A stretch of DNA of 64,000 bases, taken from Escherichia phage vB_EcoM_phAPEC6. The stretch lies in sequence record MK817115.1. The stretch is one strand, 5' to 3'. The first letter of the stretch is position 1. Each line of letters starts with the position of its first letter. Shown piece by piece: positions 51,121 through 64,000 of this stretch. The notes below the pieces were generated by a model, which was not told where the DNA came from, searched no databases, and saw nothing but the letters and a program-made list of their open reading frames with translations. Both the position numbers and the translations under genes were made by a program.

Positions 51121-51149
51121 TTGACAAGTGCATCCAGTACTGGCATAAT
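51121..51149 (+). promoter_or_regulatory. plus-strand sigma70-like promoter
   Basis: TTGACA-17-CATAAT; followed by CCCACCGGGTGC-containing ~100 nt and a terminator hairpin. Confidence 0.45.
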
Positions 51150-51476: not shown

Positions 51477-51559
51477 TTTATTTTCCTCATTACCAGGGAG
51501 AACCATTTCTCCCCTTGATGTAAACTATTATACAGTACTAAAAACTAATTGCAAGTACT

Positions 51560-51841: not shown

Positions 51842-51899
51842 TAGATAAACCCTCAATAAAGGCGGGAACCATTCCCCGCCATTGTTACAGTACTGAATA

Positions 51900-52139
51900 T
51901 TACATTCCAACCATTGCAGCACGGATCGCAGTAGTGCTATACTTAAAGCCGTCCGGCGTTGTAGTAGTACCGTTGGCTTTTAATCTGCGGTACATGCATT
52001 CCGCTGCAATATCTTTAGTTCTACTTTGTGCGATACAACTTTGTGCAAGCCGATACAATGACTCACCGTTATTAATCCATAAGGAAACATTCCAATGAGT
52101 TTTGTTTTTGTGCCCGTTGTAAGTTTTAGTACTAGCCAT
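51900..52139 (-). CDS. hypothetical protein (THWNVSLWINN paralog 1)
   Basis: paralog of 53937..54176 (GHKNKTHWNVSLWINN, TPDGFKYSTTAIRAAMVGM). Confidence 0.55.
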   Translation of the reverse strand: MASTKTYNGHKNKTHWNVSLWINNGESLYRLAQSCIAQSRTKDIAAECMYRRLKANGTTTTPDGFKYSTTAIRAAMVGM

Positions 52140-52231
52140 TTTTTTTAATCCTCGTTTGAGCGGGGAACCACTCCCCGCCTCGATATAAAGTATTATACGC
52201 TTTTAAACTTAGTTTGCAAGTACTTTTTAAA
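52140..52231 (-). promoter_or_regulatory. promoter / 5' stem-loop / RBS cassette
   Basis: TTGCAA, TATAAT, GCGGGGAACCACTCCCCGC hairpin. Confidence 0.6.
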
Positions 52232-52843
52232 TTAATATTCGATTGATTCTACTACGCCATCAATAACATTGAATTGATATTCGTTACCCTCAATCAGTGC
52301 TGTAATGTTTTCAGTAGTGAATTGATCCTCATATGCATTCTCTAAATCACGGTACAACTTGCGGGATAATTCACGAATAGTTTCAGTGAGTAGTTCCTCA
52401 AGCTCATTAACTAACGTTTCTTGTTTTGCGGTTAAATCAGTGTAAGCCGATTCAATGTACCCGCTTACAGTGTTTTCATGCGAGTAGTGGGAGTGAGAAC
52501 GCTTTACACTCATCGCCAAATCATCTTCATTCAGCAGGTGACGGATTGAGCGATACTTAGTTAATGCTCTTACCTTGCGTAAAAACTTCACTGCGTCAAC
52601 GTGGTCAGTACTGATTGATGCACCGTCACCCTGGGACCAAAAACCACTGAATTGTATTTCAGCGTCATTAATGCCATATTCCGGCAATACTGTTTCTTTA
52701 TAGTGTTCAATTTCACTTTCAGAAAAATAATCGTCGTTTGAGTTTTTTTCACGTTCCCGAACCAGTTCGATAGCTGACGTTTTTTGTTCTGCGTTCAATT
52801 CAGAAAAATCCATAACATAAGTAGTAGTAGTGATAGTTTTCAT
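52232..52843 (-). CDS. hypothetical acidic protein (203 aa)
   Basis: ORF-track ORF, strongly Asp/Glu-rich; tandem promoters with structured leader upstream. Confidence 0.55.
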   Translation of the reverse strand: MKTITTTTYVMDFSELNAEQKTSAIELVREREKNSNDDYFSESEIEHYKETVLPEYGINDAEIQFSGFWSQGDGASISTDHVDAVKFLRKVRALTKYRSIRHLLNEDDLAMSVKRSHSHYSHENTVSGYIESAYTDLTAKQETLVNELEELLTETIRELSRKLYRDLENAYEDQFTTENITALIEGNEYQFNVIDGVVESIEY

Positions 52844-53060
52844 TTTGTAACCCTCATTCAGTAGTTTATGTAAGTATTATACGCTTTTAAAAACAATTGT
52901 CAAACTATTTTATCAGGGGAGTTTTTCGTGTGCCTTACTCCTGGGCTACTTAACGGGAAGTTACTTATTTCGTTCCCCGTCCTGATGTAAAACATTATAC
53001 GCCTTTAAACATAGTTTGCAAGTACTTTTTAAAAATAGTTTTCAGTACTGAATAGTAAAA
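52844..53060 (-). promoter_or_regulatory. tandem promoters separated by ~80-nt structured leader element (copy 2)
   Basis: near-identical to 43085-43170 element with compensatory stem changes. Confidence 0.5.
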
Positions 53061-53065
53061 AGGTA

Positions 53066-53094
53066 TTGACAGCACTATCCAGTACTGGTATAAT
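53066..53094 (+). promoter_or_regulatory. plus-strand consensus sigma70 promoter
   Basis: TTGACA-17-TATAAT; downstream CCCACCGGGTGC and GATACACTCCCGCACCC elements, no ORF. Confidence 0.45.
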
Positions 53095-53268
53095 ATACCC
53101 CATGACAACAGCTAACCCACCGGGTGCACAATTGTAACTGTACTAAACTACTTTTTCTATAGATACACTCCCGCACCCTATGGGCTACGGCTTATCTGCC
53201 AATGAATACATTATGCCAGTACTGACAAAATAAGTCAATACCGGCAATTGTAAAGATTTGTAAACTAC

Positions 53269-53499
53269 TTATACTGCAATCGCGTCCAGGCTATAATAAT
53301 AATAAGTGCCGTATTGGTGTACTTTATTACCTTTTATTTCAGTACTGAATGAATCCGAACGATTGGCATATGATGTTAATTTATAGTACTTTACTTTACT
53401 AATACGTTGCCATACACCGCAGATCCGCTGTAAGTAAGTAGTTTTATTTGTGGTAGTATCTTTTACGGCTTTCAATTCGATCATATACATAGTGGTCAT
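53269..53499 (-). CDS. hypothetical protein
   Basis: ORF-track ORF; AAGGAG RBS and cassette upstream. Confidence 0.55.
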   Translation of the reverse strand: MTTMYMIELKAVKDTTTNKTTYLQRICGVWQRISKVKYYKLTSYANRSDSFSTEIKGNKVHQYGTYYYYSLDAIAV

Positions 53500-53584
53500 T
53501 TTATTACTCCTTGCTTTAGTGGGGAACTATTCCCCACCTGATATAAAGTATTATACGCGTTTAAACTTAGTTTGCAAGTACTTT

Positions 53585-53851
53585 TTATTCAAGTACTGCG
53601 ATCTTTTTAATACGGTACACGGTCACGCGGTTGCCCTTTCGGTCGAGCTTTATTTCTACCACTCGACGCGATACACTATCAGGACTTTTCAACGCCGCTA
53701 ACCAGTACTGTAATGATCTGGCGGTACTACGCTTTACAATGGCCCAACGTTTACCACGTTCCGATTGTACGCCCATATCTTTAAACGTTGCCCCGTCCTG
53801 GCGTGCGGCGATCCGAGCTTGTTCACGCGTCGCAAAATACTTAATATTCAT
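53585..53851 (-). CDS. hypothetical protein (FATREQAR paralog 2)
   Basis: start at Met13 (MNIKYFATREQ); promoter region also paralogous to that of 41568..41963. Confidence 0.55.
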   Translation of the reverse strand: MNIKYFATREQARIAARQDGATFKDMGVQSERGKRWAIVKRSTARSLQYWLAALKSPDSVSRRVVEIKLDRKGNRVTVYRIKKIAVLE

Positions 53852-53936
53852 GCTGTTGCCCTTATCGTTGGTGTATGAATAAAACACTATTATAAAGTAC
53901 TATCGCAAAAAATGATAGTACTTTAAATAAATTCTA

Positions 53937-54176
53937 TTACATTCCAACCATTGCAGCACGGATCGCAGTAGTGCTATATTTGAATCCGTCCGGTGTTTTA
54001 TCTTGTCCAGTCTGTTCTAAAAATAACATCATATGACGGGCCGCATCATTACGATTAGTATTGGCGGCAATAAAGTCCTGGGCCAACCGGTATAATGATT
54101 CATCGTTATTAATCCAAAGGCTTACATTCCAATGAGTTTTGTTTTTGTGACCTAAGAACATTTTTGATTTAGCCAT
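53937..54176 (-). CDS. hypothetical protein (THWNVSLWINN paralog 2)
   Basis: start at Met14 (MAKSKMFLGHKNKTHW) by analogy with 51900..52139. Confidence 0.55.
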   Translation of the reverse strand: MAKSKMFLGHKNKTHWNVSLWINNDESLYRLAQDFIAANTNRNDAARHMMLFLEQTGQDKTPDGFKYSTTAIRAAMVGM

Positions 54177-54269
54177 TTTTTTAATCCTCTTATATAGTGG
54201 GGAACTATTCCCCACCTGATGTAAAACATTATACGCTTTTAAACATAGTTTGCAAGTACTTTATTAAAC
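54177..54269 (-). promoter_or_regulatory. promoter / 5' stem-loop / RBS cassette
   Basis: TTGCAA, TATAAT, GGGGAACTATTCCCCAC hairpin. Confidence 0.6.
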
Positions 54270-54632
54270 TTATTCGTAAATTTTGCCACTGTCAGCCCAT
54301 ACCAGGAAACGAGGCATATTATCCCATGCATCTTGTTTTAAATTTAAACCGTGTAATACTTCTGTACTTTCCATTCCTGGTACTGGTTTACTATACACCG
54401 CAAATAGTTCACCCATATACTGATAAGCCATCGTTAAATCACTGGCGATCATCTTATGGATCATCGCATCAAGCATCACGGTAGCGGCGTATTGTTCACG
54501 CTTAAGCGGTAACATTGCAATAAGTTCCCGATAAGCTGAAATGTGAATTTTTACCGTTTCAGCCGGAAGACCTTTCATCTCTTCACGGAAGTTAACCAGG
54601 TTAGCAATAATTTTATTGATTTGAGTCGCCAT
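54270..54632 (-). CDS. hypothetical protein
   Basis: start at Met20 (MATQINKII) behind AAGAGAGA RBS; first gene after the noncoding hub. Confidence 0.5.
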   Translation of the reverse strand: MATQINKIIANLVNFREEMKGLPAETVKIHISAYRELIAMLPLKREQYAATVMLDAMIHKMIASDLTMAYQYMGELFAVYSKPVPGMESTEVLHGLNLKQDAWDNMPRFLVWADSGKIYE

Positions 54633-54746
54633 CGTTTTCATCTCTCTTACAGTGTAGCGGGAAGTGTTCCCGCTCTCGATGTAAAACATTATACGCTTTT
54701 AAACATAGTTTGCAAGTACTTTCTACATGTACTTTTAAAATAGTTT

Positions 54747-54840
54747 TCTTTCTATATAGGAGTACTATTATTCAGTACTGCAACCATCCAGGGGAACTAT
54801 CTTTCTATATAGTAGTACTATTATTCAGTACTGAATCAAT
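54747..54840. repeat. direct repeat, 2 copies of ~36 bp
   Basis: CTTTCTATATAGGAGTACTATTATTCAGTACTG repeated ~60 bp apart. Confidence 0.55.
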
Positions 54841-54995
54841 CAACCAAATCACTACTACACCCCGTAAAACGGCCTCAGACGCATTCTAACGCATTAATAC
54901 ACCCAAGCTATACATTTGCACCATTCCAATCATTCCAGGGCTTTACGGGCCGTTTAAACGCGTTAAATTATTTTCAATTATTTTGTTTTTAGGTA

Positions 54996-55023
54996 TTGAC
55001 TCAGTACAGAAAAAGCGTATAAT
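54996..55023 (+). promoter_or_regulatory. plus-strand sigma70-like promoter
   Basis: TTGACT-16-TATAAT; followed by GGGTGCGG..CCGCACCC inverted repeat. Confidence 0.45.
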
Positions 55024-55210
55024 TACTATATAGACGCGAGAAAGCGGAAACCCCAGAGGGTGCGGAATTACGCCCAAAATTCAAGATATAAAAAAAGGAT
55101 ACACTCCCGCACCCTAGCAGGTAAACGCACTTTCTCAGTACTGAAATATAGTACCATAGTCCGGCCCAGGATAGCAAGCAAATTAATTAAAACTTTTTTC
55201 ATCCAGGGTA

Positions 55211-55238
55211 TTGCTTTATTTTTCCAGTACTGTATAAT
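55211..55238 (+). promoter_or_regulatory. plus-strand sigma70-like promoter
   Basis: TTGCTT-16-TATAAT; followed by GAGAAAG..CCCACCGGGTGC..TTACGCCCAAAATTCA element shared with 55040-55100. Confidence 0.45.
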
Positions 55239-55469
55239 AGTTCCATCAAGTCGAGAAAGACTCAAGCCCACCGGGTGCATAGTTACGCCCAAAATTCAGT
55301 ACTAGATTATTTTTTAAAAATATTCATCCAGGCGGTTGACATTGCCCCCAGTTTATAAGATAATGATTCCAGATTCAGAAAAATCTAACTCCAGATACTG
55401 CGGGGAAACTATCCCCACGCGGTAGGGGAACTATTGGAAAAAACAAAATAAAATTTTGATTTAGCCGTC

Positions 55470-55600
55470 TATACTTCCAGACGTGTAACCATCTAGCCGT
55501 TTAGCCGTCCAAACGTCTAGCCATCCAGCCCTCCAGAAATCTAGCCGTTTAGCCGTCTAGATGGATAGCCATCTTTACTTCCAGACTTCTGGAGGGCTAG
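55470..55600. repeat. iteron-like repeat cluster with inverted repeat
   Basis: CTAGCCGTTTAGCCGTC twice, multiple TAGCC(G/A)T words, 11-bp inverted repeat GCCCTCCAGAA/TTCTGGAGGGC. Confidence 0.5.
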
Positions 55601-56631
55601 ACATATCTACGTCCAAAATCCACCCAGGGTAACTACGCCCAAAATCCGTCAGTACTATACCATAGATCTATCTTTTGAAAGGGAGTATTCAGTACTGCCA
55701 TCATAGCCCTCACTATGTTACCCTAGGAGGATGAAGACTATCATGTAGTACTGAATACTGTTAGAGGGAATCCACCAGCACAAGCTGGTGGCATAATGCT
55801 TTAGATTAAAATCAGTACTGACACCATTCTGTTAATATCAGTACTGTTATTACGATTTTCATATGAGGTTCAAAAAGATGTACCACCACAGGAGGAACTA
55901 TCTTTTCTGTACTGTCTCACGACAGGAGGTAGAGTAAATGAATTGTTCGCAGCAACTCATCACCCTATGTAGAACATTATACAGTACTGAATCATAATGT
56001 CAATAGCTTTCTTTCATTATTCAGTACTGATATTCTTGAGAACTACCCGACTACAAACATCATTATATCCCACAAATCATAAACGTCCCAACGTAAATTT
56101 CAACTTTCGAAGATCCAACTTTTATTTCATAGGTACTCCAAAATTTTTAGGATCGAGATTTAGGATGGAGTACTAACCAACTTTTTGCTGGAGCCTCAAG
56201 GGGTAATGGAATTTTACCCCGAAGGGTAAAGGGGTAATTGAAATTAAGGTGAAAGTAATAATTCAGTACTAATCATTGCGTGATTACTTTTGATTACATT
56301 TGATGTAATTTGAAAAATGGAAAAGGAGCTTGGAAACTACAAAGTACGGCAGACTTCCTCTGCCTACTTAGTGGCATATCAGTACTGAATCCTTCCCGTG
56401 CATTCTTGAGCATTCTTGTCTATACTAATCAGTACTGAATCATATATAATCATTCTGTGATTCTACGGTGCTCATATAAATGTTTATATATGATTACTTA
56501 TGACTACCTATGATTACGGGGTTTAGCCTGGGGAGAATCCTAGTGATCGCATTTGTCCAGGCTGAATTTTAACAATTCGCCTGTACATAAAGGTTGTTCA
56601 CTAGGAGCTTCCCCTGTCTCTATGTGTTTAA

Positions 56632-56823
56632 TTACTTTCTATATATAAGCATTAAGATATAGTAGTACTGATTATACTGTACATTCTCTTTAATATTATA
56701 AGGGTCTATAGCAATCTCGGTACATCTGTTAAATGCATATCTATTAAATGCCAGTGGAATTATAGATCTAATCCATACTTGTTCATTTTCTTTTAGTTTA
56801 CTTATATAGAAGTTTTTATACAT
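56632..56823 (-). CDS. FamC mini-protein
   Basis: N-term MYKNFY, C-term ILMLIYRK; tandem array. Confidence 0.55.
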   Translation of the reverse strand: MYKNFYISKLKENEQVWIRSIIPLAFNRYAFNRCTEIAIDPYNIKENVQYNQYYYILMLIYRK

Positions 56824-56838
56824 AGTATTCTCTATTAA

Positions 56839-57021
56839 TTAATATGATAGTACTAGTGTTAGTACTGAGCACAATTGTTCTTTATAGTTCTTAGGGTATA
56901 TAGAATCTTTTATGCACTCATTGAAGTGCCATAGGTATAATCTTGGGTCGCATTCTTTATATATTCTTACGGGGACGAATGTTAGTTTTCTTATATAGAA
57001 TTCTTTATGTTCTTTATTCAT
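56839..57021 (-). CDS. FamC mini-protein
   Basis: N-term MNKEHKEFY, C-term LTLVLSY. Confidence 0.55.
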   Translation of the reverse strand: MNKEHKEFYIRKLTFVPVRIYKECDPRLYLWHFNECIKDSIYPKNYKEQLCSVLTLVLSY

Positions 57022-57022
57022 A

Positions 57023-57211
57023 TTAGTACCTGAATATAAGTAGGATTATGTTATAGTACTGGTTAGTACTGCAATGATTCTCTATACATCGATTAACAGT
57101 TATGGAATAGCTATATCTGGCGTAAGCATTATCCAGCGGGATTTTACATTGAGCACTTAGAGAAAGTACAGTAGGTAGTGTATTCAAATAGAAGTCTTTG
57201 TAATTATTCAT
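57023..57211 (-). CDS. FamC mini-protein
   Basis: N-term MNNYKDFY, C-term ILLIFRY. Confidence 0.55.
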   Translation of the reverse strand: MNNYKDFYLNTLPTVLSLSAQCKIPLDNAYARYSYSITVNRCIENHCSTNQYYNIILLIFRY

Positions 57212-57413
57212 ACAGGAATAGTATACCTATGATACCTGAGTACAGGTTAGTACTGTTACCATCTTCGTTTGCGTTTAAAGTCATTTGAATACAATTATTG
57301 TAGCATACTCTGCCGAAAAATGTATTAGTACTTAAAGGTGGAGTAGTCCTTAGAAACATTTGTTCTGAGGGGCTTATGTATTTGGAGTAGAATTCTTTAT
57401 GTTCTTTATTCAT
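57204..57413 (-). CDS. FamC mini-protein
   Basis: N-term MNKEHKEFY; near-duplicate of 60216..60425. Confidence 0.55.
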   Translation of the reverse strand: MNKEHKEFYSKYISPSEQMFLRTTPPLSTNTFFGRVCYNNCIQMTLNANEDGNSTNLYSGIIGILFLYE

Positions 57414-57418
57414 ATTAG

Positions 57419-57604
57419 TTAGTGTCTGTATATAAGTAATAGTAAGAATACGTACTGCACATCTTCATCTTTAGTATTGAGTACTGTACGTATTGCGTCA
57501 TTAAACAAGAATATAGTACTTGGGTCATGAGAATTTAAAGGGGTTCTGGGTACGGCATGTTTGTAGTTCCCTTTAACAAATTGTGTGTAGTATTCTCTAT
57601 GCAT
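57419..57604 (-). CDS. FamC mini-protein
   Basis: N-term MHREYY, C-term LLLLIYRH. Confidence 0.55.
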   Translation of the reverse strand: MHREYYTQFVKGNYKHAVPRTPLNSHDPSTIFLFNDAIRTVLNTKDEDVQYVFLLLLIYRH

Positions 57605-57605
57605 A

Positions 57606-57791
57606 TTAGTACCTATATATTAGGGCGATAATGTAGTACAATTCATATGGAATGTAATTTGGGGTGATCGCACACTGTGTATGGTAAATGAATTGTTCGG
57701 TATTTTTCTTATCCTTGATATCTATTGGGATTAGTGGTATAAGCATTTGGGAGTTTAGATCGAGATGGCTTAAGTAGAATTCTTTATGCAT
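57606..57791 (-). CDS. FamC mini-protein
   Basis: N-term MHKEFY, C-term IALIYRY. Confidence 0.55.
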   Translation of the reverse strand: MHKEFYLSHLDLNSQMLIPLIPIDIKDKKNTEQFIYHTQCAITPNYIPYELYYIIALIYRY

Positions 57792-57800
57792 ATTGTTCTT

Positions 57801-57989
57801 TTAGAATACGAAAGCTAGGTACAGGGTATGATACAGTACTCGATGATAGCTGTCAAAATCTAGTATACATGCTTTAGTGCACATAGTAAAGTACACTTTA
57901 TCGTTTTGTGCATTGATACCGCGAGGTTTATCTAATAGATTAGTACTGAGGTACATTGGGAAATATTTTGTGTAGTATTCTTTATGCAT
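57801..57989 (-). CDS. FamC mini-protein
   Basis: start at Met16 (MHKEYYTKYF); track ORF to 58034. Confidence 0.5.
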   Translation of the reverse strand: MHKEYYTKYFPMYLSTNLLDKPRGINAQNDKVYFTMCTKACILDFDSYHRVLYHTLYLAFVF

Positions 57990-57990
57990 A

Positions 57991-58173
57991 TTAGTACCTG
58001 AATATAAGTAGGATAGTGTTATATAGCTGGTCATAACTACTACTATTTTCTATACTTCGTTCTATGCAGTTATTGAATCCCAGTACTGCCAAATCGTTAT
58101 CCATAGGGACTTTGTATCTGGCGTAGTGTTCAAAAATGCTGGGGAGAAATTGTGTGTAGTATTCTTTGTGCAT
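57991..58173 (-). CDS. FamC mini-protein
   Basis: N-term MHKEYY, C-term ILLIFRY. Confidence 0.55.
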   Translation of the reverse strand: MHKEYYTQFLPSIFEHYARYKVPMDNDLAVLGFNNCIERSIENSSSYDQLYNTILLIFRY

Positions 58174-58174
58174 A

Positions 58175-58360
58175 TTAGTACCTATATATTAGTAAAAGGA
58201 TGTGATACAGTACTCGATTATAGTCTTCAATATATATCGAGGATTTAGTGCACTGAATGAAGTAGTCTTTTTCGTAGTTTTTTTCTATACCCAATGGTTC
58301 TGTTGGTACAAGGTGTTGGAGATACATTGGGAGTTTCTCTATGTAGTATTCTTTATACAT
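58175..58360 (-). CDS. FamC mini-protein
   Basis: N-term MYKEYY, C-term LLLIYRY; AAGGA RBS. Confidence 0.55.
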   Translation of the reverse strand: MYKEYYIEKLPMYLQHLVPTEPLGIEKNYEKDYFIQCTKSSIYIEDYNRVLYHILLLIYRY

Positions 58361-58369
58361 ATATTATCC

Positions 58370-58567
58370 TTAGTACTGGAACGCAAGGTACAGGGTGTGG
58401 TAAAGTTGTACTTGATAATTGTTTTCATTAGCTTCTTCATTAAGTACTTGTTCAGTACATGTACGGAAGTAATCAGCTTCATATATACAGTCAATACCGC
58501 GAGGTTCATCTTCTAATAGATTTCCTTGTAGAAACTTTGGTAGTTCTTTTATGTAGAATTCTTTATA
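58370..58567 (-). CDS. FamC mini-protein
   Basis: start at Met23 (MYKEFYIKELP); track ORF to 58633. Confidence 0.5.
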   Translation of the reverse strand, partial: YKEFYIKELPKFLQGNLLEDEPRGIDCIYEADYFRTCTEQVLNEEANENNYQVQLYHTLYLAFQY

Positions 58568-59234
58568 CATAGTTTGTAATATACGTAATGAGGTGATGCA
58601 TTTTCTTATCAGTACTGATAATTTCCTGTACATGTTTTGTCAGATTGTACGCGTTTTTATAGAGTACTGGATTATCGATTACAGTACTGTACATGAATAG
58701 TTCTTCTTCCTGTAGTTCTTTGTGTTCTAGTTCTTTGAGGAATTCTACAATTGATTTAGTTTCTTCTGTACGTTGTGCTTGCCAGAAGTGCATATTCTCG
58801 TGTACTTTTTTTGCACCTATACTGTATATACCACCCATTTGGAATTGTGCTGTATTGACATCGTGGGAGGTGTTACAATTCCCGAAGAAGTATGTATTCC
58901 CGAAGTATAGCATTAAAGTGCACGGGGTATTATCCAACTGCATATGGATGATGAAGGATGCGTTCTTTAGTACCTTTGTGCTCGTATTAGTACTCAATAC
59001 TTTTAAATCAGTATTATAGATATTCATATAATGAACAGCTATATTATTTTTCTTCATGTACAATCCCAGGTTCTTTGATACGTTAACTCCATTTGTACTG
59101 GATTTTTCCTTTTTATTTCGTTTCTTTAGTACATTCGGGTGATACGTATATGCAGATGTAACTGATTCTGCCTGAATACTATTGAGGTACTTAAAGTGCT
59201 TAAGGTATTGTTTGCTGTGTGCATTAAGTTTCAT
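58563..59234 (-). CDS. FamA-like protein embedded in FamC array
   Basis: 223 aa with QEEELFMYSTVIDN (FQxS-type core with M for Q). Confidence 0.55.
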   Translation of the reverse strand: MKLNAHSKQYLKHFKYLNSIQAESVTSAYTYHPNVLKKRNKKEKSSTNGVNVSKNLGLYMKKNNIAVHYMNIYNTDLKVLSTNTSTKVLKNASFIIHMQLDNTPCTLMLYFGNTYFFGNCNTSHDVNTAQFQMGGIYSIGAKKVHENMHFWQAQRTEETKSIVEFLKELEHKELQEEELFMYSTVIDNPVLYKNAYNLTKHVQEIISTDKKMHHLITYITNYV

Positions 59235-59244
59235 TTGGTTTCCT

Positions 59245-59424
59245 TTATATAGATGCCAGGGCGAGGATTTCCCTGTAGGGATTATCTTGTGTTAGTACAG
59301 CATAAATGCAGTTATTGAGATTAATATTTTTAGTACTTTTTGTTCCTAGTTTGTAGTACTTCACGAAGGTGTCGTACATGAAACGGTCTTTTATGGTTAT
59401 ACGTTCTCTATAGAATTGTTGCAT
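59245..59424 (-). CDS. FamC-like mini-protein (59 aa)
   Basis: hand-translated; N-term MQQFY, C-term EILALASI; just below track cutoff. Confidence 0.4.
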   Translation of the reverse strand: MQQFYRERITIKDRFMYDTFVKYYKLGTKSTKNINLNNCIYAVLTQDNPYREILALASI

Positions 59425-59432
59425 AGTATTCC

Positions 59433-59615
59433 TTAAATAGCGATTAGTTTCATTACTTCTCTGTATGTGTACTTTTCGTTTTGTGCATCTCTTGTGACGA
59501 CATATAGGAAGGTGTGTTTATCTTTTTTGTTCCCGCAATTGTAGAAAATATTGAACTTATTGAAGTTGAATCTTTCGGCGTGTTGTAGTTTAGTTAAATA
59601 GAATTCTATGTTCAT
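59433..59615 (-). CDS. FamC mini-protein
   Basis: N-term MNIEFY, C-term KYTYREVMKLIAI. Confidence 0.5.
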   Translation of the reverse strand: MNIEFYLTKLQHAERFNFNKFNIFYNCGNKKDKHTFLYVVTRDAQNEKYTYREVMKLIAI

Positions 59616-59623
59616 TTTCTTCC

Positions 59624-59809
59624 TTACATTTCAATAAGTTTCAGTACTGCTCGGTACGTGTACTTAGTTGTCAGTGCTTCTTTAATAGAAATACAGAAGT
59701 AATGTTGTTTGTCTCTTATACTGCCGCGTTTGTAGTACCACACATGGGAGTTGTGACTGTACTTGTCTCTGTCGGATAGTTGTTGGTAGTAGTAGCTTAT
59801 ATGATTCAT
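59624..59809 (-). CDS. FamC mini-protein
   Basis: C-term TKYTYRAVLKLIEM, paralog of 59433..59615. Confidence 0.5.
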   Translation of the reverse strand: MNHISYYYQQLSDRDKYSHNSHVWYYKRGSIRDKQHYFCISIKEALTTKYTYRAVLKLIEM

Positions 59810-60018
59810 TATAATGTAATTAGCCTTACTATATTAAAGTACTCGGTCCCTGGTGTACCTTGTAGTATATTACGCACGACATTTTTTTGGTGCTGGATGA
59901 TTGCTGAAGGTGCGGTTCTTTTTAGTTTTTTTAAAGTACTGAATTCTTGTTTAAGTATGAACTGTACATCTTTAGGGAGAATATCTATGTAGTACTGATG
60001 AATGTTTGTAGTTTTCAT
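59809..60018 (-). CDS. FamC mini-protein (QYYID subtype)
   Basis: HQYYIDILP and RNILQGTPG; paralog of 60427..60630. Confidence 0.5.
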   Translation of the reverse strand: MKTTNIHQYYIDILPKDVQFILKQEFSTLKKLKRTAPSAIIQHQKNVVRNILQGTPGTEYFNIVRLITL

Positions 60019-60028
60019 ATAGCACCTT

Positions 60029-60223
60029 TTAGAACTTAAAGATGAGGTTCAGGATAGAGCGGTACTTAGTTTCAGGGAACTGATGTTCTATTGCATAACG
60101 TGTCGCCATCCTGAAATCGTAATTGTAATATAGATTATCCTTTCTCATAGGTGGTGCTAAAGAGAATGATAGCTGGTCTTGCTTGTGTAGTTTACTACCA
60201 TAGAAATCTTTATGATTATTCAT
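60029..60223 (-). CDS. FamC mini-protein
   Basis: N-term MNNHKDFY, C-term LNLIFKF. Confidence 0.5.
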   Translation of the reverse strand: MNNHKDFYGSKLHKQDQLSFSLAPPMRKDNLYYNYDFRMATRYAIEHQFPETKYRSILNLIFKF

Positions 60224-60425
60224 AGAAGTAGATTAGTCCTATTAAACCTGAGTACATAATATTTTTGTTATTGCATTCGATTGCTTCTAGAGTACTACGT
60301 ATACAATTATTAAAGCAATCTCTACCGAAGTGAGTATTGGTACTTACAGGTGATACACTCCTTAGAAACAATTGTTCTTCGTTGCTAAGGTATTTGGTGT
60401 AGAATTCTTTATGTTCAGTATTCAT
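60216..60425 (-). CDS. FamC mini-protein
   Basis: N-term MNTEHKEFYTKYLS, near-duplicate of 57204..57413. Confidence 0.55.
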   Translation of the reverse strand: MNTEHKEFYTKYLSNEEQLFLRSVSPVSTNTHFGRDCFNNCIRSTLEAIECNNKNIMYSGLIGLIYFYE

Positions 60426-60426
60426 A

Positions 60427-60630
60427 TTAGTACTCGATTAAAAGGGCAAGGATATAATAGTATTGCATACTTTCTGCCCCTTGTAAAGCATTTCTTATGA
60501 TATTATTCCTGTACGAGTTCAGGAGTTTAGGACAACGTTTGTAGTGTATAATAGTATTTTGTGTATACAGTAGGCTTTCTCGTAGACCTTTTGTTGGTAG
60601 TGCATCGATGTAGTACTGTTCGATATTCAT
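60427..60630 (-). CDS. FamC mini-protein (QYYID subtype)
   Basis: EQYYIDALP and RNALQGAES. Confidence 0.5.
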   Translation of the reverse strand: MNIEQYYIDALPTKGLRESLLYTQNTIIHYKRCPKLLNSYRNNIIRNALQGAESMQYYYILALLIEY

Positions 60631-60854
60631 ATAGATAGCAGTACTAAGATTTTTGATAATTGTTTATTGCTATCCCCGCAGATGTTGCTGTGTAAAATAC
60701 TCACAATGAGGGTATCAATTGCATTGTTCATCATAAGGGTGCATCCTGGACTATTATAATTTTTTAGCTCAATTAGCCACGAACTATCCGAGAGAAACTC
60801 CCCGTACTCTAGTTCATTTAGAGTATTGAGGTAGTACTTAAGAGTATTTGTCAT
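60627..60854 (-). CDS. FamC-like mini-protein (first gene of array)
   Basis: ORF-track ORF, C-term KILVLLSI; divergent point of transcription. Confidence 0.45.
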   Translation of the reverse strand: MTNTLKYYLNTLNELEYGEFLSDSSWLIELKNYNSPGCTLMMNNAIDTLIVSILHSNICGDSNKQLSKILVLLSI

Positions 60855-60899
60855 GTGTAGTTCTCCTTATATTCCTTCTATAGTACAACAGTACTGAAA

Positions 60900-60956
60900 G
60901 GATGTCAAGGGTTTTCTTTATGGGGTAAATATGATATAATGAATAAGGAGGGATTT
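60900..60956 (+). promoter_or_regulatory. promoter-like region and RBS for first RCC1-like gene
   Basis: TATAAT box then AAGGAGG RBS 5 nt before ATG; -35 not obvious; same block repeated before the two downstream paralogs. Confidence 0.4.
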
Positions 60957-62105
60957 ATGTTACCTTTTGCAAGAATGATTAAGTACGGGAATATTGCCCC
61001 TGGTGATGATGGACGTTTTAAAATATATTCCAGTGATTCCATGTATCTTCATGATACTTATACTGATAAGTTGTATGCATCTTCTGCGACGAATTGGGGT
61101 ACTGGTACAGGTGTAGCATCGAGTAAATTTATTCTTTGTGCGGAGAATGTTAAACGAGTTCTATTGGAAGATAACAGTAGTGATTGTCAATTGTACGAAG
61201 AGAAAGGTACGGGAAAAGTTTTTATCACTGGCAACACGAAGGCATTCACTGGTGTAACTGATAGAAAAACTTTGTGGACGGACTGTACTACATGGATAAC
61301 ATCAGGTGGTATTAATGTTTCTGATATAAAATACATGAGTAGTTTTTATGATATGAAGGTGAATTTGATAACAAACGATGGTACATTGTATTGTTGTGGA
61401 GCTAACAATATATCGAACATATCATCATTTGGTGATGGCACAAACATTAATTCTTTTAACACATTCAAAAGAGTAGATACTATAACTTCGGTTAAAAAGG
61501 CAGTTGGTAACATTTATTTGCGAGAAGATAATACTTTATGGGGTTGTGGTTTTAACTATTACTACCAGTTGGGTACGGGTAATCAAACTTCTATTACTGG
61601 GGTGACGATGATTTCTTCGGATGTTATAGATTTTAATGTAAGTTATCAGAGTACATTTTTTATCAAATCGGATAATAATTTGTACGCTTGTGGTAAACAG
61701 TTCGGTGCACAATATGGGAACGAATTTGGTACAGGTGGTACTTCTACATCTACAGATATACAATATAAAACTCCGACATTATTGAGTTCAGGAGTTTATA
61801 CTCTATATACTTGTGTTGGTAACATGGCATCACATATTGTCAAAGCAGATGAAGTTCTATATGCTTCTGGAACGAATGGGTTTGGGCAATTAGGTGTTGG
61901 TAATAATAATAATCAGTACTCCTATACTCCTTCTTATACTTCTTTTAATAGTTCGTGTGATTTGGTACGCAGTCCATCTGGATCACTTATACTTACGGAT
62001 ACTGGAAAATTATATTATTGTGGCATTGCAATAGTAGTAATGGGTGGTATTTCTGGACAGAACGTTCTTAATTATACAGAAGTAGATATGTCATTTATAC
62101 AATGA
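60957..62105 (+). CDS. RCC1-like repeat (beta-propeller) protein, FamD copy 1
   Basis: repeated LWGCGFNYYYQLGTGN, LYASGTNGFGQLGVGN blocks; start at MLPFARMIKYGN behind AAGGAGG (track ORF begins 18 nt upstream). Confidence 0.6.
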   Translation: MLPFARMIKYGNIAPGDDGRFKIYSSDSMYLHDTYTDKLYASSATNWGTGTGVASSKFILCAENVKRVLLEDNSSDCQLYEEKGTGKVFITGNTKAFTGVTDRKTLWTDCTTWITSGGINVSDIKYMSSFYDMKVNLITNDGTLYCCGANNISNISSFGDGTNINSFNTFKRVDTITSVKKAVGNIYLREDNTLWGCGFNYYYQLGTGNQTSITGVTMISSDVIDFNVSYQSTFFIKSDNNLYACGKQFGAQYGNEFGTGGTSTSTDIQYKTPTLLSSGVYTLYTCVGNMASHIVKADEVLYASGTNGFGQLGVGNNNNQYSYTPSYTSFNSSCDLVRSPSGSLILTDTGKLYYCGIAIVVMGGISGQNVLNYTEVDMSFIQ

Positions 62106-62113
62106 ATTAATAT

Positions 62114-62142
62114 GCCAGTACTTGATACTGGCTTTTCTTTTT
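62114..62142 (+). terminator. rho-independent terminator
   Basis: GCCAGTA-CTTGA-TACTGGC hairpin followed by TTTTCTTTTT. Confidence 0.6.
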
Positions 62143-62177
62143 GTATTAAATATAGTATAATGAATAAAGGAGGAATT

Positions 62178-63320
62178 ATGTTACCTTTTGCAAGAATGGT
62201 TAAGTACGGGAATATTGCACCTGCACAAATCGGTAGATATAAAATATACAGTTCATCTTCTTCACTATTTTTATTGGATACCCAAAAACACAATTTGTAC
62301 AGTACATCGAACATTAATTATACTAGTGGTACAGGTAATGTTGAGCCTAAATTTGTGTTAAGTGCAACTAATGTTAAAAGATTATTACTATCTGATAATA
62401 GTTGTGCAATGCAAATATATGAAGATATGAATGGGCGTGCAGCGATGTGTGGCACAAGAACTGCATATAGTGGGGTTGCAAATGATAATGTACTGGTATG
62501 GACGGATTGCACTACATGGTTCACAAATGTAGGGTTGAATGTATCAGATATTCAGTACATGTCTGGTTTTTATAATCTGAAACTAAACATAGTTATGAAT
62601 AATGGTGATTTGTGGTGTAGTGGGAAAAACAACACTACTACTATGTCATCATTTGGTAATAGCACAAATATCGATTCATTCAATCAGTTTACCAAAATAA
62701 CAACAATATCAAATGTTATTAAAGCCACCGGGAATATATACTTATGTGCAGATAATACTTTATGGGGATGTGGTTTTAACTCTTACTATCAGTTAGGGAC
62801 AGGTAATCAAACATCCAGTATTAATTTGATTATGATGGCTTCTAATGTTATCGACTGTAATGTTGGTCTTCAAAATACTTATTACTTGACTAATAATAAA
62901 GAACTTTATGGATGTGGTACACAATTTGGTACAACTTACGGGAATGAATTTGGAACAGGAAGGCAGGGAACATCAATACAATATAAGACTCCTACTATAA
63001 TTTTCACAAATGCAGATGGTCTGGCTGTTTGTGTCGGTAATATGTCTACTCATGTTATTCAATATGATAAAGTTTTTAGTTCTGGTAATAATGCCCTTGC
63101 ACAGTTGGGTGTAGGCAACCGTGACAATGTGTACACATATACACAATCATTTGATAATTTCAAAATGGATTCTTCTATAGTACGTGCAAACGTTGGAACA
63201 TTGATAATGACAGCGGACAATAAGTTATATTACAGTGGGAGAAATGATGTTGTTATGGGTGGAACAAGCACACAATACACGACGGTTTTCAGTGAAGTTA
63301 ATATGTCATTTATACAATGA
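62178..63320 (+). CDS. RCC1-like repeat protein, FamD copy 2
   Basis: same N-terminus MLPFARMVKYGN and C-terminus EVNMSFIQ as copy 1; LWGCGFNSYYQLGTGN; start behind AAGGAGG. Confidence 0.6.
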   Translation: MLPFARMVKYGNIAPAQIGRYKIYSSSSSLFLLDTQKHNLYSTSNINYTSGTGNVEPKFVLSATNVKRLLLSDNSCAMQIYEDMNGRAAMCGTRTAYSGVANDNVLVWTDCTTWFTNVGLNVSDIQYMSGFYNLKLNIVMNNGDLWCSGKNNTTTMSSFGNSTNIDSFNQFTKITTISNVIKATGNIYLCADNTLWGCGFNSYYQLGTGNQTSSINLIMMASNVIDCNVGLQNTYYLTNNKELYGCGTQFGTTYGNEFGTGRQGTSIQYKTPTIIFTNADGLAVCVGNMSTHVIQYDKVFSSGNNALAQLGVGNRDNVYTYTQSFDNFKMDSSIVRANVGTLIMTADNKLYYSGRNDVVMGGTSTQYTTVFSEVNMSFIQ

Positions 63321-63326
63321 ATTAAT

Positions 63327-63357
63327 GCCAGTACTTGATACTGGCTTTTCTTTTTTG
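63327..63357 (+). terminator. rho-independent terminator
   Basis: identical GCCAGTACTTGATACTGGC hairpin plus T-run. Confidence 0.6.
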
Positions 63358-63392
63358 TATTAAATATAGTATAATGAATAAAGGAGGGAATT

Positions 63393-64000
63393 ATGTTACC
63401 TTTTGCAAGAATGGTTAAGTACGGAAATGAAGCACCAGAACCAAAACCTCTATTTAAAAATAGATTACAAGCAAATTATAATACTCGTTTTTATTTGCAT
63501 GTTAATGGTGACTTGTACTGGTATGGTTCATCTTCATTTGGACAAGGTGGTAATGGTTCATTACAATCATCCACCGTATGGACCCGTGTGAATAATAATA
63601 TTGAACGTTACTGGGGTGGTGTTCTTGGTTCCATTGCCATTAAGAATGATGGAACTATTTGGTTCACAGGTGCTAGTATAGTAATGCCACAAATCGGAAC
63701 AAATACAAATGGGGTTTGGATTGATGTAACCCAGTACTTCACTGATTTTGGTGTCAGTGCTGATGATATTGATGGTATTGCTGTTGGACAGAATTTGCGT
63801 GTATTTTTGAAAAATGGAAAATGGTTCTACTGTGGTGCTGGCGAGGGTGGTGTATTTGGTAACGCATCAACAGCTAATGTCACATCGTTCAGATACAGCA
63901 CTATAGAAAATGTTAAAAGTTATGGCTGTTCTTTGCTCAGTACTGGGTTAGTTCTTGATGATGGTTCCTATTGGTATGCAGGAAATACTGTTGCTCCTGG
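63393..64000 (+). CDS. RCC1-like repeat protein, FamD copy 3 (partial, continues beyond window)
   Basis: ATG behind AAGGAGGG; frame open to window end on hand translation; N-terminus MLPFARMVKYGN; SFGQGGNG and CGAGEGGVFG glycine-rich repeats; not in ORF track (no stop). Confidence 0.55.
   Translation, partial: MLPFARMVKYGNEAPEPKPLFKNRLQANYNTRFYLHVNGDLYWYGSSSFGQGGNGSLQSSTVWTRVNNNIERYWGGVLGSIAIKNDGTIWFTGASIVMPQIGTNTNGVWIDVTQYFTDFGVSADDIDGIAVGQNLRVFLKNGKWFYCGAGEGGVFGNASTANVTSFRYSTIENVKSYGCSLLSTGLVLDDGSYWYAGNTVAP

What the first reader, a model, noticed from the sequence alone, without database searches (positions are those of the whole stretch)
60900..64000. Three RCC1-like repeat genes with identical 5' ends, each with its own terminator; strand switch at ~60.9 kb
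After about 60 kb of minus-strand genes, transcription switches to the plus strand with three paralogous genes. Each has the same upstream block (TATAGTATAATGAATAAAGGAGG), the same first 12 codons (MLPFARM(I/V)KYGN) and, for the two complete copies, the same C-terminus (EV(D/N)MSFIQ) and an identical terminator hairpin. The middle regions carry divergent glycine-rich repeats of the RCC1 beta-propeller type. Conserved ends with variable middles resemble exchangeable receptor-binding or adhesin modules.
Basis: partly seen in the sequence, partly recalled or inferred. Interest (0 to 1): 0.65.

Follow-up and report, generated by a model that had tools for sequence, protein, structure and literature searches.

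The report
Swappable propeller-protein genes in jumbo phage
These are the first three genes of an already annotated tandem array of RCC1-like beta-propeller genes in a 121Q-type giant E. coli phage; each is a self-contained, probably late-expressed cassette that related phages swap at a shared junction, and relatives of these proteins are found in virions, so they are more likely exchangeable virion-borne binding modules than the 'DNA condensation' proteins they are annotated as.

Summary
Three plus-strand genes (60957-62105, 62178-63320, 63393->64000) share an almost identical junction block of about 150 bp. The block holds a terminator hairpin, a TAAATA/TATAAT promoter-like element, a Shine-Dalgarno site and 12 leader codons. 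The gene bodies are only 54% and 29% identical.

Both complete proteins model as seven-bladed RCC1-like propellers, and the leader MLPFARM(I/V)KYGN lies disordered outside the fold. The window comes from an Asteriusvirus jumbo phage, where such arrays of 9-12 genes are already annotated as "regulator of chromosome condensation".

Comparison adds three points:
- **Cassette shuffling.** Order and content differ among six near-identical phages (at least 23 cassette types). Homology breaks exactly at the junction block.
- **Late expression.** The TAAATA element matches the one upstream of head and tail genes and is absent from early genes.
- **A shared leader.** The MLPF leader is conserved across genera with different codons. 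It also heads Kelch, LamG-lectin and two other protein families, and five of the seven such proteins in phage CBB were found in virions by published mass spectrometry.

The best reading is leader-addressed, exchangeable virion binding modules. Location on or inside the virion, and the ligand, remain untested. The genes are known; the cassette and leader logic appears undescribed.

The parts
60880..60908 (-). Sigma-70-type promoter-like site (TTGACA-17-TACTAT) for the leftward early genes, inside the divergent 102-bp intergenic region. It contains the palindrome CAGTACTG (60889-60896).
   Evidence: same layout as the early promoters listed
60926..60953 (+). g1 upstream block (a variant of the junction block): TAAATA 60926-60931 (late-promoter-like), TATAAT 60935-60940, Shine-Dalgarno AGGAGG 60946-60951.
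60957..62105 (+). g1, cassette type A: 382-aa RCC1-like seven-bladed propeller. Leader is residues 1-12 (60957-60992); C-terminus is EVDMSFIQ. It is the ortholog of 121Q gp248 (94.5% aa) and UE-S1_212 (96.9%).
62079..62229 (+). Junction block 1 (about 150 bp, 97% identical to block 2): last 8 codons of g1, terminator, promoter-like element, SD, and the first ~17 codons of g2. Homology breakpoints against 121Q, G17 and PBECO4 fall at its edges.
62114..62142 (+). Intrinsic terminator of g1: hairpin GCCAGTACTTGATACTGGC (62114-62132) plus T-run.
62147..62173 (+). Promoter-like and ribosome-binding block of g2: TAAATA 62147-62152, TATAAT 62156-62161, AAGGAGG 62167-62173.
62178..63320 (+). g2, cassette type P: 380-aa RCC1-like propeller, 54% identical to g1. 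It is rare: found in only 2 of the records in the phage collection (96.8% aa), at a different array position.
63294..63445 (+). Junction block 2: last 8 codons of g2, terminator, promoter-like element, SD, and the first ~17 codons of g3.
63327..63355 (+). Intrinsic terminator of g2 (identical hairpin plus T-run).
63361..63387 (+). Promoter-like and ribosome-binding block of g3 (TAAATATAGTATAATGAATAAAGGAGG).
63393..64000 (+). g3, cassette type F: the first 202 codons of an RCC1-like gene, cut by the window end. It is 100% aa identical to 121Q gp247 and 29% identical to g1.

Best explanation
The three genes are the start of a hypervariable tandem array of late-expressed accessory virion proteins in a 121Q-type (Asteriusvirus) jumbo phage.

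Each gene is a plug-in cassette. A junction block holds a terminator hairpin, a TAAATA late-type promoter element, a strong Shine-Dalgarno site and 12-15 leader codons. It is followed by a variable body that folds into a seven-bladed RCC1-like propeller.

Shown:
- The propeller fold, with the leader lying outside it.
- Junction blocks kept about 97% identical while bodies have diverged to 29-54%.
- Cassette gain, loss and reordering between near-identical phages, with breakpoints at the junction block.
- The same leader on at least five unrelated protein families in related genera.

From the literature: leader-bearing proteins of several fold types are detected in purified virions.

Inferred:
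- The junction block is the homology used for recombinational cassette exchange.
- The leader is the address that docks each module onto a common site of the virion.
- The propeller is a ligand-binding module, most likely displayed on the particle surface. The array would then supply a changeable repertoire of adhesin or decoration domains.

The annotated role in 'chromosome/DNA condensation' is a name transferred from eukaryotic RCC1. It is not supported.
For: Fold: AF2 gives pLDDT 89 for g1 and 92.4 for g2. The g1 model has 28 beta-strands (7 x 4), and the g2 body is equivalent. Residues 1-17 (g1) and 1-13 (g2) have pLDDT below 50. Foldseek TM is 0.72-0.75 to UVR8, HERC2 RLD and RCC1.

Junction: 97% identity against 55-68% in the bodies.

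Shuffling: cassette order is window A-P-F; 121Q A F B G C D Q E H I R K; UE-S1 A S T B E D C J G; PBECO4 L B G A C E J M K; G17 U L B N A F C D H V I O; JP4 A B J C N D E H W I O M. The tail tube protein is 100% identical in five of these phages (98.2% in UE-S1; the window does not reach that gene). g2 is an exact junction-to-junction insertion relative to 121Q. Homology with G17 and PBECO4 stops 35-48 nt into the ORF.

Selection: type-A orthologs have dN/dS 0.14-0.34 and dS up to 0.27, next to flanks that are 99% identical. These look like old functional alleles moved by recombination.

Late expression: TAAATA lies 31-32 nt before the ATG in most of the 53 (of 61) cassettes that carry it. It is present upstream of 22 of 39 head, tail and baseplate genes of 121Q; the capsid and scaffold genes carry TATAAATA. 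It is present upstream of 0 of 41 early genes, against a background of 1-5%. 121Q encodes an annotated late sigma factor.

Leader: it is conserved in Yersinia phage Yen9-04, GAP32, Serratia phage BF and CBB, with different codons (CCA instead of CCT for Pro3, and so on). Identity at positions 5-15 is 0.67 within the genus and 0.27 between genera, against 0.12 and 0.08 for the next 30 residues.

Same leader on other folds: Laminin_G_3 lectin-like proteins (47.8 bits), Kelch propellers, phrog_6011 and phrog_4474.

Virion proteomics:
- CBB_548, 549, 551, 552 and 553 (five of seven leader genes) gave 2-7 peptides and up to 50.7% coverage.
- GAP32 gp1 and gp2 (RefSeq annotation).
- Seven phAPEC6 RCC1-like proteins.
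- W70_237-239, with 141-233 spectra.

Surface-type relatives: bacterial homologs carry T9SS sorting, dockerin or MucBP domains. RCC1 domains occur in Pseudomonas phage tail fibres.
Against: - No experiment places these proteins on the outside of the particle or ties them to adsorption.
- The phAPEC6 and JP4 mass-spectrometry lists also contain obvious non-structural proteins (RecA-like, SSB, ThyA, ClpP-like), and the RCC1-like proteins there have only 1-4 peptides.
- The predicted proteins are compact monomers with no fibre or trimerisation domain.
- No docking partner was identified, and no neighbouring gene is conserved between genera.
- CBB has tail 'hairs' but no RCC1 homolog, so RCC1 proteins are not the hairs themselves.
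- The late-promoter assignment rests on a 6-nt motif and on analogy with T4; there are no transcript data.
- The array lies among early-type genes, far from the tail-fibre genes.
Confidence: 0.45

Rival explanations
1. The proteins are internal or ejected head proteins. On this view the MLPF leader works like the T4 capsid-targeting sequence (CTS). It would load diverse cargo into the prohead core, and the proteins would be packed with the DNA (for example in the 'inner body') and injected to act on host targets such as defence systems. That would explain the rapid cassette turnover.
For: [quoted passage not shown] That is the same logic: a short conserved N-terminal leader on diverse bodies that end up in the virion.
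- 121Q has a T4-like head module, with annotated gp20-, gp21-, gp22- and gp23-like genes.
- phAPEC6 has an inner body of unknown composition, and its authors nominated the RCC1-like proteins for it.
- The g1 model gives the leader a short low-confidence helix; in the g2 model it has no secondary structure. It is unstructured outside the fold either way.
- The array sits outside the structural modules, as the T4 ip genes do (from memory).
Against: - Only 4 of 54 cassette proteins have a T4-protease-type (L/I)xE motif in their first 30 residues, so the leader is not followed by the expected cleavage site.
- No head-core or scaffold protein of 121Q carries the leader.
- The bodies are 25-42-kDa beta-propellers and lectin-like domains. 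Their relatives are extracellular or tail-fibre proteins. They are not small basic proteins: median pI is 6.7.
Confidence: 0.2
2. The proteins are late intracellular accessory proteins and not true virion components. For example, they could bind host or phage proteins during assembly, lysis timing or superinfection. Their detection in virion preparations would then be carry-over of abundant late proteins.
For: - Each cassette has a strong Shine-Dalgarno site and its own promoter-like element and terminator, so high expression is plausible.
- The phAPEC6 and JP4 virion lists contain clear contaminants at similar peptide counts.
Against: - Detection is consistent in four independent studies and three phage lineages. 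In W70 the spectral counts are comparable to baseplate proteins. In CBB coverage reaches 50.7%.
- A leader conserved across five folds calls for a common interaction partner.
Confidence: 0.12
3. This is plain tandem duplication with concerted evolution. The identical ends would simply reflect recent gene conversion between paralogs and carry no function of their own. The proteins would do whatever a single RCC1-like gene does, including the annotated 'DNA condensation'.
For: - Within Asteriusvirus even synonymous sites of the leader codons are uniform (TTA CCT TTT ... AGA ATG ... AAT in 52-54 of 54 cassettes), which indicates DNA-level homogenisation.
- The phAPEC6 paper, citing Hua et al., interprets the array as tandem duplication.
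Against: - The leader peptide is kept in other genera with different codons, and on Kelch, LamG, phrog_6011 and phrog_4474 proteins that are not RCC1 paralogs.
- W70 RCC1-like virion proteins share a different leader of their own, MLEM(L/M)NLG.
- The proteins are neutral or acidic and poor in charged residues, unlike DNA-condensing proteins.
- Bacteria have no Ran or nucleosome system for RCC1 to act on.
Confidence: 0.08

Closest known systems
RCC1-like ('regulator of chromosome condensation' / 'putative DNA condensation') paralog arrays of Asteriusvirus and other Rak2-like jumbo phages (121Q gp234-248, PBECO4 gp286-296, the eleven in phAPEC6, GAP32 gp1)
   Same: It is the same locus. g1 is 94.5% identical to 121Q gp248, and g3 is 100% identical to gp247 over its 202 aa. 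The position is the same, after the block of small minus-strand genes. The arrays and their virion association are mentioned in PMC5259590, PMC7247149 and PMC13070987.
   Different: This window has its own cassette order (A-P-F). Its P cassette is seen in only two other records of the collection. The searched literature treats the genes as duplicated 'DNA condensation' genes. I found no description of the leader, the junction cassettes or the shuffling.
T4 internal proteins (IPI, IPII, IPIII and their polymorphic locus), addressed by an N-terminal capsid-targeting sequence
   Same: A short conserved N-terminal leader on otherwise unrelated, fast-turning-over proteins that end up in the virion (PMC3012670).
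   Different: - The leader sequence is unrelated (MLPFxRxxxYGN against MKTYQEFIAE; the T4 sequence is from memory).
- There is no (L/I)xE cleavage motif after it.
- The cargo is large propellers and lectin-like domains rather than small proteins.
- An internal location has not been shown.
[quoted passage not shown]
   Same: Repeated promoter-plus-terminator blocks flank non-essential ORFs. Insertions, deletions and replacements between close relatives have their breakpoints in those blocks.
   Different: - Here the promoter element is of the late type (TAAATA, no -35), not a sigma-70 early promoter.
- The repeat extends into the coding sequence on both sides (leader codons and, in one subfamily, the last 8 codons).
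- The cassettes encode virion-associated proteins.
- True PeSL-like early blocks (TTGACA-N17-TATAAT plus hairpin) occur elsewhere in the same window.
- Mini-circles were not tested.
Exchangeable receptor-binding proteins anchored by a conserved N-terminal part (phage tailspikes and fibres; the adenovirus fibre tail motif docking on the penton base) - recalled from memory
   Same: A conserved N-terminus is followed by a variable binding domain. Genes are swapped by recombination at the conserved part. RCC1-like domains do occur in Pseudomonas phage tail fibres.
   Different: - The anchor would be only about 12-15 residues long.
- The bodies are predicted monomeric propellers with no fibre shaft.
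- There is no evidence for a position at the baseplate or for a role in host range.
- 121Q has conventional tail fibres and spikes elsewhere, and two of those proteins share their own N-terminus.
Eukaryotic RCC1 (Ran guanine-nucleotide exchange factor bound to chromatin)
   Same: A seven-bladed propeller built of RCC1 repeats.
   Different: - Sequence identity is only 14-18%.
- There is no Ran or nucleosome partner in bacteria.
- The proteins lack a basic character.
- The name is an annotation transfer, not a function.

Membership tests
RCC1-like repeat beta-propeller (Pfam PF00415 / PF13540 / PF25390) | RCC1 repeat matches above the Pfam gathering score | tested here: met
   g1: RCC1 34.6 bits (GA 21.7) and RCC1_2 36.4 (GA 22). 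g2: 26.3 and 26.3. g3 (partial): only the RLD model, at E=4.6e-9 and below its GA of 150.
RCC1-like repeat beta-propeller (Pfam PF00415 / PF13540 / PF25390) | Seven four-stranded blades forming a closed propeller | tested here: met
   The AF2 models have pLDDT 89 and 92.4. The g1 model has 28 strands, and the g2 body is equivalent. Foldseek gives E=4e-19 and TM 0.72-0.75 over the full length to UVR8, HERC2 RLD, RPGR and RCC1.
PHROG 4219 (phage 'regulator of chromosome condensation' family) | Full-length match to the family profile | tested here: met
   E=1.2e-111 (g1), 7.7e-75 (g2) and 5.6e-62 (g3).
Eukaryotic RCC1 function (Ran-GEF / chromatin binding; the annotated 'DNA condensation') | A Ran GTPase partner and nucleosome or DNA binding through basic surfaces or a basic tail | tested here: not met
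   pI is 5.1 (g1) and 7.4 (g2); the median over 54 cassette proteins is 6.7. K+R is 23-26 of about 380 residues. The N-terminal leader is hydrophobic and aromatic, not basic. Actual DNA binding was not testable.
T4-type capsid-targeting-sequence (CTS) internal proteins | A short conserved N-terminal leader on otherwise unrelated proteins | tested here: met
   The leader is shared by RCC1, Kelch, LamG, phrog_6011 and phrog_4474 proteins.
T4-type capsid-targeting-sequence (CTS) internal proteins | Leader ends at a prohead-protease site ((L/I)xE in T4-type heads) and is removed | tested here: not met
   The motif occurs in the first 30 residues of only 4 of 54 cassette proteins. Actual processing was not testable.
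T4-type capsid-targeting-sequence (CTS) internal proteins | Location inside the capsid and ejection with the DNA | not testable with these tools
   Published mass spectrometry shows virion association only, not location.
PeSL-type mobile regulatory cassettes | A repeated block of terminator stem-loop plus promoter between ORFs | tested here: met
   A hairpin plus T-run followed by a promoter-like element lies after g1 and g2. It is also found after 42 of 53 Asteriusvirus cassettes, with dG at or below -6.
PeSL-type mobile regulatory cassettes | The promoter is a strong sigma-70 early promoter | tested here: not met
   There is no -35 box at a 16-18 nt spacing. The block instead carries the TAAATA element shared with head and tail genes.
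PeSL-type mobile regulatory cassettes | Indel and replacement breakpoints between close relatives lie in the blocks | tested here: met
   Breakpoints fall at window 60991 and 61004 (against G17 and PBECO4). Against 121Q they fall at 62229 and 63294.
Phage receptor-binding protein / adhesin | Exposed on the virion and determining adsorption or host range | not testable with these tools
   The evidence is indirect only: virion mass spectrometry of homologs, extracellular-type bacterial relatives and RCC1 domains in phage tail fibres.
Phage receptor-binding protein / adhesin | A conserved N-terminal anchor followed by a variable distal binding domain | tested here: inconclusive
   The sequence pattern fits: a conserved leader and a variable propeller. 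However, the 'anchor' is only 12-15 residues long, and no partner or oligomeric shaft was found.

The most novel reading that the evidence does not exclude
Rak2-like jumbo phages may use a leader-addressed 'plug-and-play' system. One 12-15-residue N-terminal address (MLPFxRxxxYGN) would deliver at least five structurally unrelated binding domains to a common site of the virion. These domains are the RCC1 propeller, the Kelch propeller, a ConA/LamG-like lectin domain, phrog_6011 and phrog_4474. The genes would be exchanged between phages as units through a recombinogenic terminator / late-promoter / leader junction. A second, unrelated leader (MLEMLNLG) on the RCC1-like virion proteins of Vequintavirinae suggests that the principle has arisen more than once.
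Probability: 0.4. Interest if true: 0.7.

Novelty: new variant of a known kind. Interest (0 to 1): 0.5.

Why it matters
If the leader really is a virion address, it would do three things:
- Give a function to one of the largest paralog families of these 350-kb phages.
- Replace a misleading annotation ('DNA condensation') now used in more than 30 genomes.
- Offer a short tag for loading or displaying foreign domains on jumbo-phage particles, much as the T4 capsid-targeting sequence is used.

The cassette junctions also identify where host-interaction repertoires are exchanged between therapeutic-candidate coliphages that are otherwise almost identical. That is relevant for predicting differences in host range or environmental binding. 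If the proteins turn out to be carry-over late proteins, the finding reduces to a tidy example of PeSL-like shuffling in a non-T4 phage.

Tried and rejected
- **Junction promoter as a sigma-70 promoter.** I looked for one in the junction. No -35 box is present, and the consensus scan is not enriched over shuffles (34 sites against 31.9 expected).
- **15-mer elsewhere in the window.** TAAATATAGTATAAT with up to 3 mismatches gave 18 hits against 17.8 expected, so the full block is specific to the array.
- **Velcro-strand explanation.** I considered that the conserved N- and C-termini together close the propeller. This is rejected for the N-terminus, which lies outside the fold with pLDDT below 50 in both models.
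- **Conserved neighbouring gene as a docking partner or chaperone.** The gene downstream of the Asteriusvirus array (phrog_34359) and the one downstream of the Yen9-04 array (phrog_3739) are unrelated.
- **Other libraries.** NCBIfam and PADLOC gave no hits. The PDB sequence search with the non-RCC1 cassette gp243 gave none. Rfam and tRNA scans of the window gave none.
- **JP4 proteome supplement.** Locus-tag searches failed because the file uses different gene numbers. Reading the file showed two leader proteins with one peptide each, in a list that also holds non-structural proteins.
- **Diversifying selection on type-A orthologs.** dN/dS is 0.14-0.34, so there is no gene-wide positive selection. 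The divergence is better explained by exchange of old alleles.
- **UE-S1 and Sharanji papers.** They say nothing about these genes.

Full report
**What is there**

The window is about 60 kb of small minus-strand genes followed by a switch to the plus strand. The last leftward ORF starts at 60854 and the first rightward gene starts at 60957.

Three rightward genes follow:
- g1, 60957-62105, 382 aa
- g2, 62178-63320, 380 aa
- g3, 63393 to beyond 64000

All three begin MLPFARM(I/V)KYGN. g1 and g2 end EV(D/N)MSFIQ.

After g1 and g2 lies the identical hairpin GCCAGTACTTGATACTGGC with a T-run (dG -10 kcal/mol). It is followed by GTATTAAATATAGTATAATGAATAAAGGAGG and the next ATG. g1 has a close variant, TATGATATAATGAATAAGGAGGG.

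Along the 1.2-kb repeat unit, nucleotide identity is 55-68% in the bodies and 97% in the junction. At the protein level g1 and g2 are 54% identical, and g1 and g3 are 29% identical. g1's upstream block is a variant, and g3's terminator is outside the window.

**Identity of the locus**

The DNA is 93-97% identical to Asteriusvirus jumbo coliphages of about 350 kb, such as 121Q, PBECO4, G17 and UE-S1. In 121Q the same position holds 15 annotated CDSs, gp248 to gp234. Fourteen are named 'regulator of chromosome condensation' or 'putative DNA condensation protein', and gp243 is 'hypothetical'. The window catches only the first three genes of such an array.

Published papers note:
- the multiple copies in 121Q and PBECO4, and that GAP32 gp1 is a structural protein by mass spectrometry (PMC5259590)
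- eleven copies in phAPEC6, seven of them detected in virions, with the suggestion that they organise DNA or the inner body (PMC7247149)
- that these genes are among the most different between sister phages (PMC13070987)

**Fold**

Pfam RCC1 and RCC1_2 repeats score above threshold, and PHROG 4219 matches end to end.

AlphaFold models of g1 (pLDDT 89) and g2 (pLDDT 92.4) give closed propellers. The g1 model has 28 strands, that is seven four-stranded blades, and g2 has an equivalent body. The best solved matches are UVR8, HERC2 and RPGR RCC1-like domains and RCC1 itself, with TM 0.6-0.75 at 14-18% identity.

In both models the first 13-17 residues, which are exactly the conserved leader, have pLDDT below 50 and lie outside the propeller. 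The conserved N-terminus is therefore not a structural 'velcro' strand.

The proteins are neutral to acidic (pI 5.1 and 7.4; median 6.7 over 54 cassette proteins), poor in charged residues and rich in Ser/Thr/Asn and aromatic residues. That does not fit a DNA-condensing role. The name is an annotation transfer from eukaryotic RCC1.

**The junction is a regulatory cassette of the late type**

Early genes in the same window (36-55 kb, minus strand) carry textbook TTGACA-N17-TATAAT promoters followed by a 5'-UTR hairpin. The RCC1 junction has no -35 box. Instead it has TAAATA, 31-32 nt before the ATG in most of the 53 (of 61) cassettes from six phages that carry the element.

The same hexamer lies upstream of 22 of 39 neck, tail, baseplate and head genes of 121Q. 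Examples are TATAAATA before the major capsid and scaffold genes, and AATAAATATAGTATAT before a tail fibre gene. One tail-tube gene has a hairpin plus TGCTAAATAAAGTATAAT, the same layout as the cassettes. The hexamer is upstream of 0 of 41 early genes, against a background of 1-5% per 80-nt window.

121Q encodes an annotated late sigma factor and a T4-like head module. By analogy with the T4 late promoter TATAAATA (established knowledge), each cassette is most likely an independent late transcription unit. This is an inference from motifs, not from transcript data.

Not every cassette in related phages has its own block. 42 of 53 have a stable hairpin; the rest are translationally coupled to the next gene.

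**The junction is also where cassettes are exchanged**

I clustered all leader-bearing ORFs of six arrays at 70% aa identity or more. This gives at least 23 cassette types with different order and content:

| Phage | Cassette order |
|---|---|
| window | A-P-F... |
| 121Q | A F B G C D Q E H I R K |
| UE-S1 | A S T B E D C J G |
| PBECO4 | L B G A C E J M K |
| G17 | U L B N A F C D H V I O |
| JP4 | A B J C N D E H W I O M |

The tail tube protein is 100% identical in 121Q, PBECO4, G17 and JP4, and 98.2% in UE-S1.

Three comparisons locate the breakpoints:
- Relative to 121Q, g2 (type P) is an exact junction-to-junction insertion. Homology runs to window 62229 and resumes at 63294.
- Against G17 the flank is 99% identical up to 35 nt into g1, and then a different cassette follows.
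- Against PBECO4 the break is 48 nt into g1.

Type P occurs in only two other records of the collection, three cassettes further downstream.

Type-A orthologs have dS up to 0.27 with dN/dS 0.14-0.34. The cassettes are therefore old, functional alleles moved around by recombination, not genes that mutate fast.

This behaviour matches the PeSL 'mobile regulatory cassettes' of T4-type phages (PMC2839356, PMC4122927). There are two differences. The promoter element is of the late type, and the repeat reaches into the coding sequence.

**The leader is the most telling part**

Within Asteriusvirus even the synonymous sites of the leader codons are uniform, which shows DNA-level homogenisation.

The peptide is nevertheless also kept in other genera, with different codons: Yersinia phage fHe-Yen9-04, Cronobacter phage GAP32, Serratia phage BF and Pectobacterium phage CBB. 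Beyond the MLPF used to find them, positions 5-15 are 67% identical within the genus and 27% identical between genera. The next 30 residues are 12% and 8% identical.

The leader is not confined to RCC1 proteins:
- 121Q gp243, inside the array, is a phrog_4474 protein.
- GAP32_002, annotated as a virion structural protein, is phrog_6011.
- In CBB, seven tandem genes (CBB_548-554) all start MLPF... and encode two Laminin_G_3 (ConA-like lectin) proteins, two phrog_6011 proteins and three Kelch propellers.
- In Serratia phage BF, nine tandem leader genes mix RCC1, phrog_4474 and phrog_6011.

The CBB paper's mass spectrometry found five of those seven proteins in virions, with 2-7 peptides and up to 50.7% coverage.

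In the unrelated Vequintavirinae phage W70, three tandem PHROG-4219 proteins are virion components with 141-233 spectra. They share a different leader of their own, MLEM(L/M)NLG.

A short, lineage-specific N-terminal peptide on heterogeneous beta-rich binding domains that end up in particles is most simply read as a virion-incorporation address.

**Where in the virion, and what for**

Two readings remain.

(a) Surface display. The leader docks interchangeable binding modules onto a common external site.
- In favour: the nearest non-phage relatives are secreted or surface proteins with T9SS, dockerin or MucBP domains.
- In favour: RCC1 domains occur in Pseudomonas phage tail fibres, and the LamG and Kelch relatives hit 'tail', 'baseplate' and 'virion structural' PHROGs.
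- In favour: these phages carry unexplained fibres and decorations on capsid and tail.

(b) Internal or ejected proteins, addressed as T4 internal proteins are by their capsid-targeting sequence (PMC3012670). These phages have a T4-like head module and an inner body of unknown composition.
- Against: only 4 of 54 proteins have the (L/I)xE protease motif near the leader.
- Against: no scaffold or core protein carries the leader.
- Against: the cargo is large and folded.

I favour (a) at about 0.45 against 0.2 for (b), but no available tool can settle it.

Two further points limit the conclusions. CBB has tail hairs without any RCC1 gene, so the RCC1 proteins are not the hairs themselves. The phAPEC6 and JP4 virion lists include clear contaminants at similar peptide counts, so carry-over of abundant late proteins keeps a minor probability.

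**Verdict**

Its idea of 'exchangeable modules' is well supported by comparative genomics. The receptor-binding function is plausible but untested.

The genes themselves are already annotated, under a misleading name. I did not find the following described in the searchable literature:
- the cassette anatomy (terminator, late-type promoter, leader)
- the junction-mediated shuffling
- the sharing of one leader by at least five unrelated folds

The closest known systems are T4's CTS-addressed internal proteins and PeSL cassettes. This looks like a variant that combines both principles.

Noticed in passing
whole window; e.g. 60889-60896, with dense clusters at 53.0-56.5 kb: The palindrome CAGTACTG occurs 58 times against 0.66 expected from dinucleotide shuffles. 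AGTACT occurs 271 times against about 22 expected. Copies lie in early-promoter spacers (..AGTACTGTATAAT), upstream of -35 boxes, in the cassette terminator stems, and inside ORFs. AGTACT is also enriched in the 121Q tail module (51 copies in 28.7 kb). The cause is unknown; a regulator site or a modification or restriction-related signal are possibilities.
   Followed up: partly
window ~54700-56630: An ORF-poor stretch of about 2 kb, unannotated in 121Q as well. It holds an 8-bp-period tandem array at 55466-55617 (CGTCTAGC / CGTTTAGC / CATCCAGC ...) next to a 36-nt imperfect inverted repeat. It also holds at least 11 copies of TTCAGTACTGAAT. It looks like an origin, regulatory or packaging-type region. 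There are no tRNA or Rfam hits.
   Followed up: partly
window ~36400-55300, minus strand: Dozens of small genes are each preceded by a near-identical block: TTGACA-N17-TATAAT followed by the 5'-UTR hairpin GGGGAGAA-TAGT-TCTCCCC and an RBS. These are PeSL-like early regulatory cassettes, distinct from the late-type junction of the RCC1 array.
   Followed up: partly
window ~56630-60854, minus strand: A run of about 20 tandem paralogous mini-genes of about 60-75 aa. Many begin MN/MK..(E/Q)(F/Y)Y.. and end in ..L(I/A)..(Y/I). It is interrupted by one 223-aa ORF (58563-59234). Copy number differs between 121Q, G17 and JP4 in the annotation tables.
   Followed up: no
L001 (121Q) 21403-22582, 23743-24991, 25072-26224: Several cassettes in 121Q are split or truncated: gp240+gp239, gp237+gp236, gp235+gp234, and gp238 at 269 aa. 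The array therefore also accumulates broken copies.
   Followed up: no
L135 (phage W70) 3450-6948: The three RCC1-like virion proteins of this Vequintavirinae phage share their own N-terminal leader, MLEM(L/M)NLG. Their C-terminal endings (..PLDLTGLE, ..TPLELPE, ..SMPWY) resemble the ..LP.. endings of many Rak2-like cassettes.
   Followed up: partly
L136 / L008 (phage CBB) CBB_548-554; L005 (Serratia phage BF) 2189-11724: Tandem arrays of 7 and 9 genes that all start MLPF... but encode Kelch, LamG, phrog_6011, phrog_4474 and RCC1 bodies. In these phages most genes are tightly coupled, without individual terminators.
   Followed up: yes
L137 (121Q) 7283-10337: gp572 (virion structural protein) and gp573 (colanic-acid-degrading protein) share the N-terminus MAVFSN(L/F)EGTM. 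This is the usual sign of two receptor-binding proteins using one anchor.
   Followed up: no
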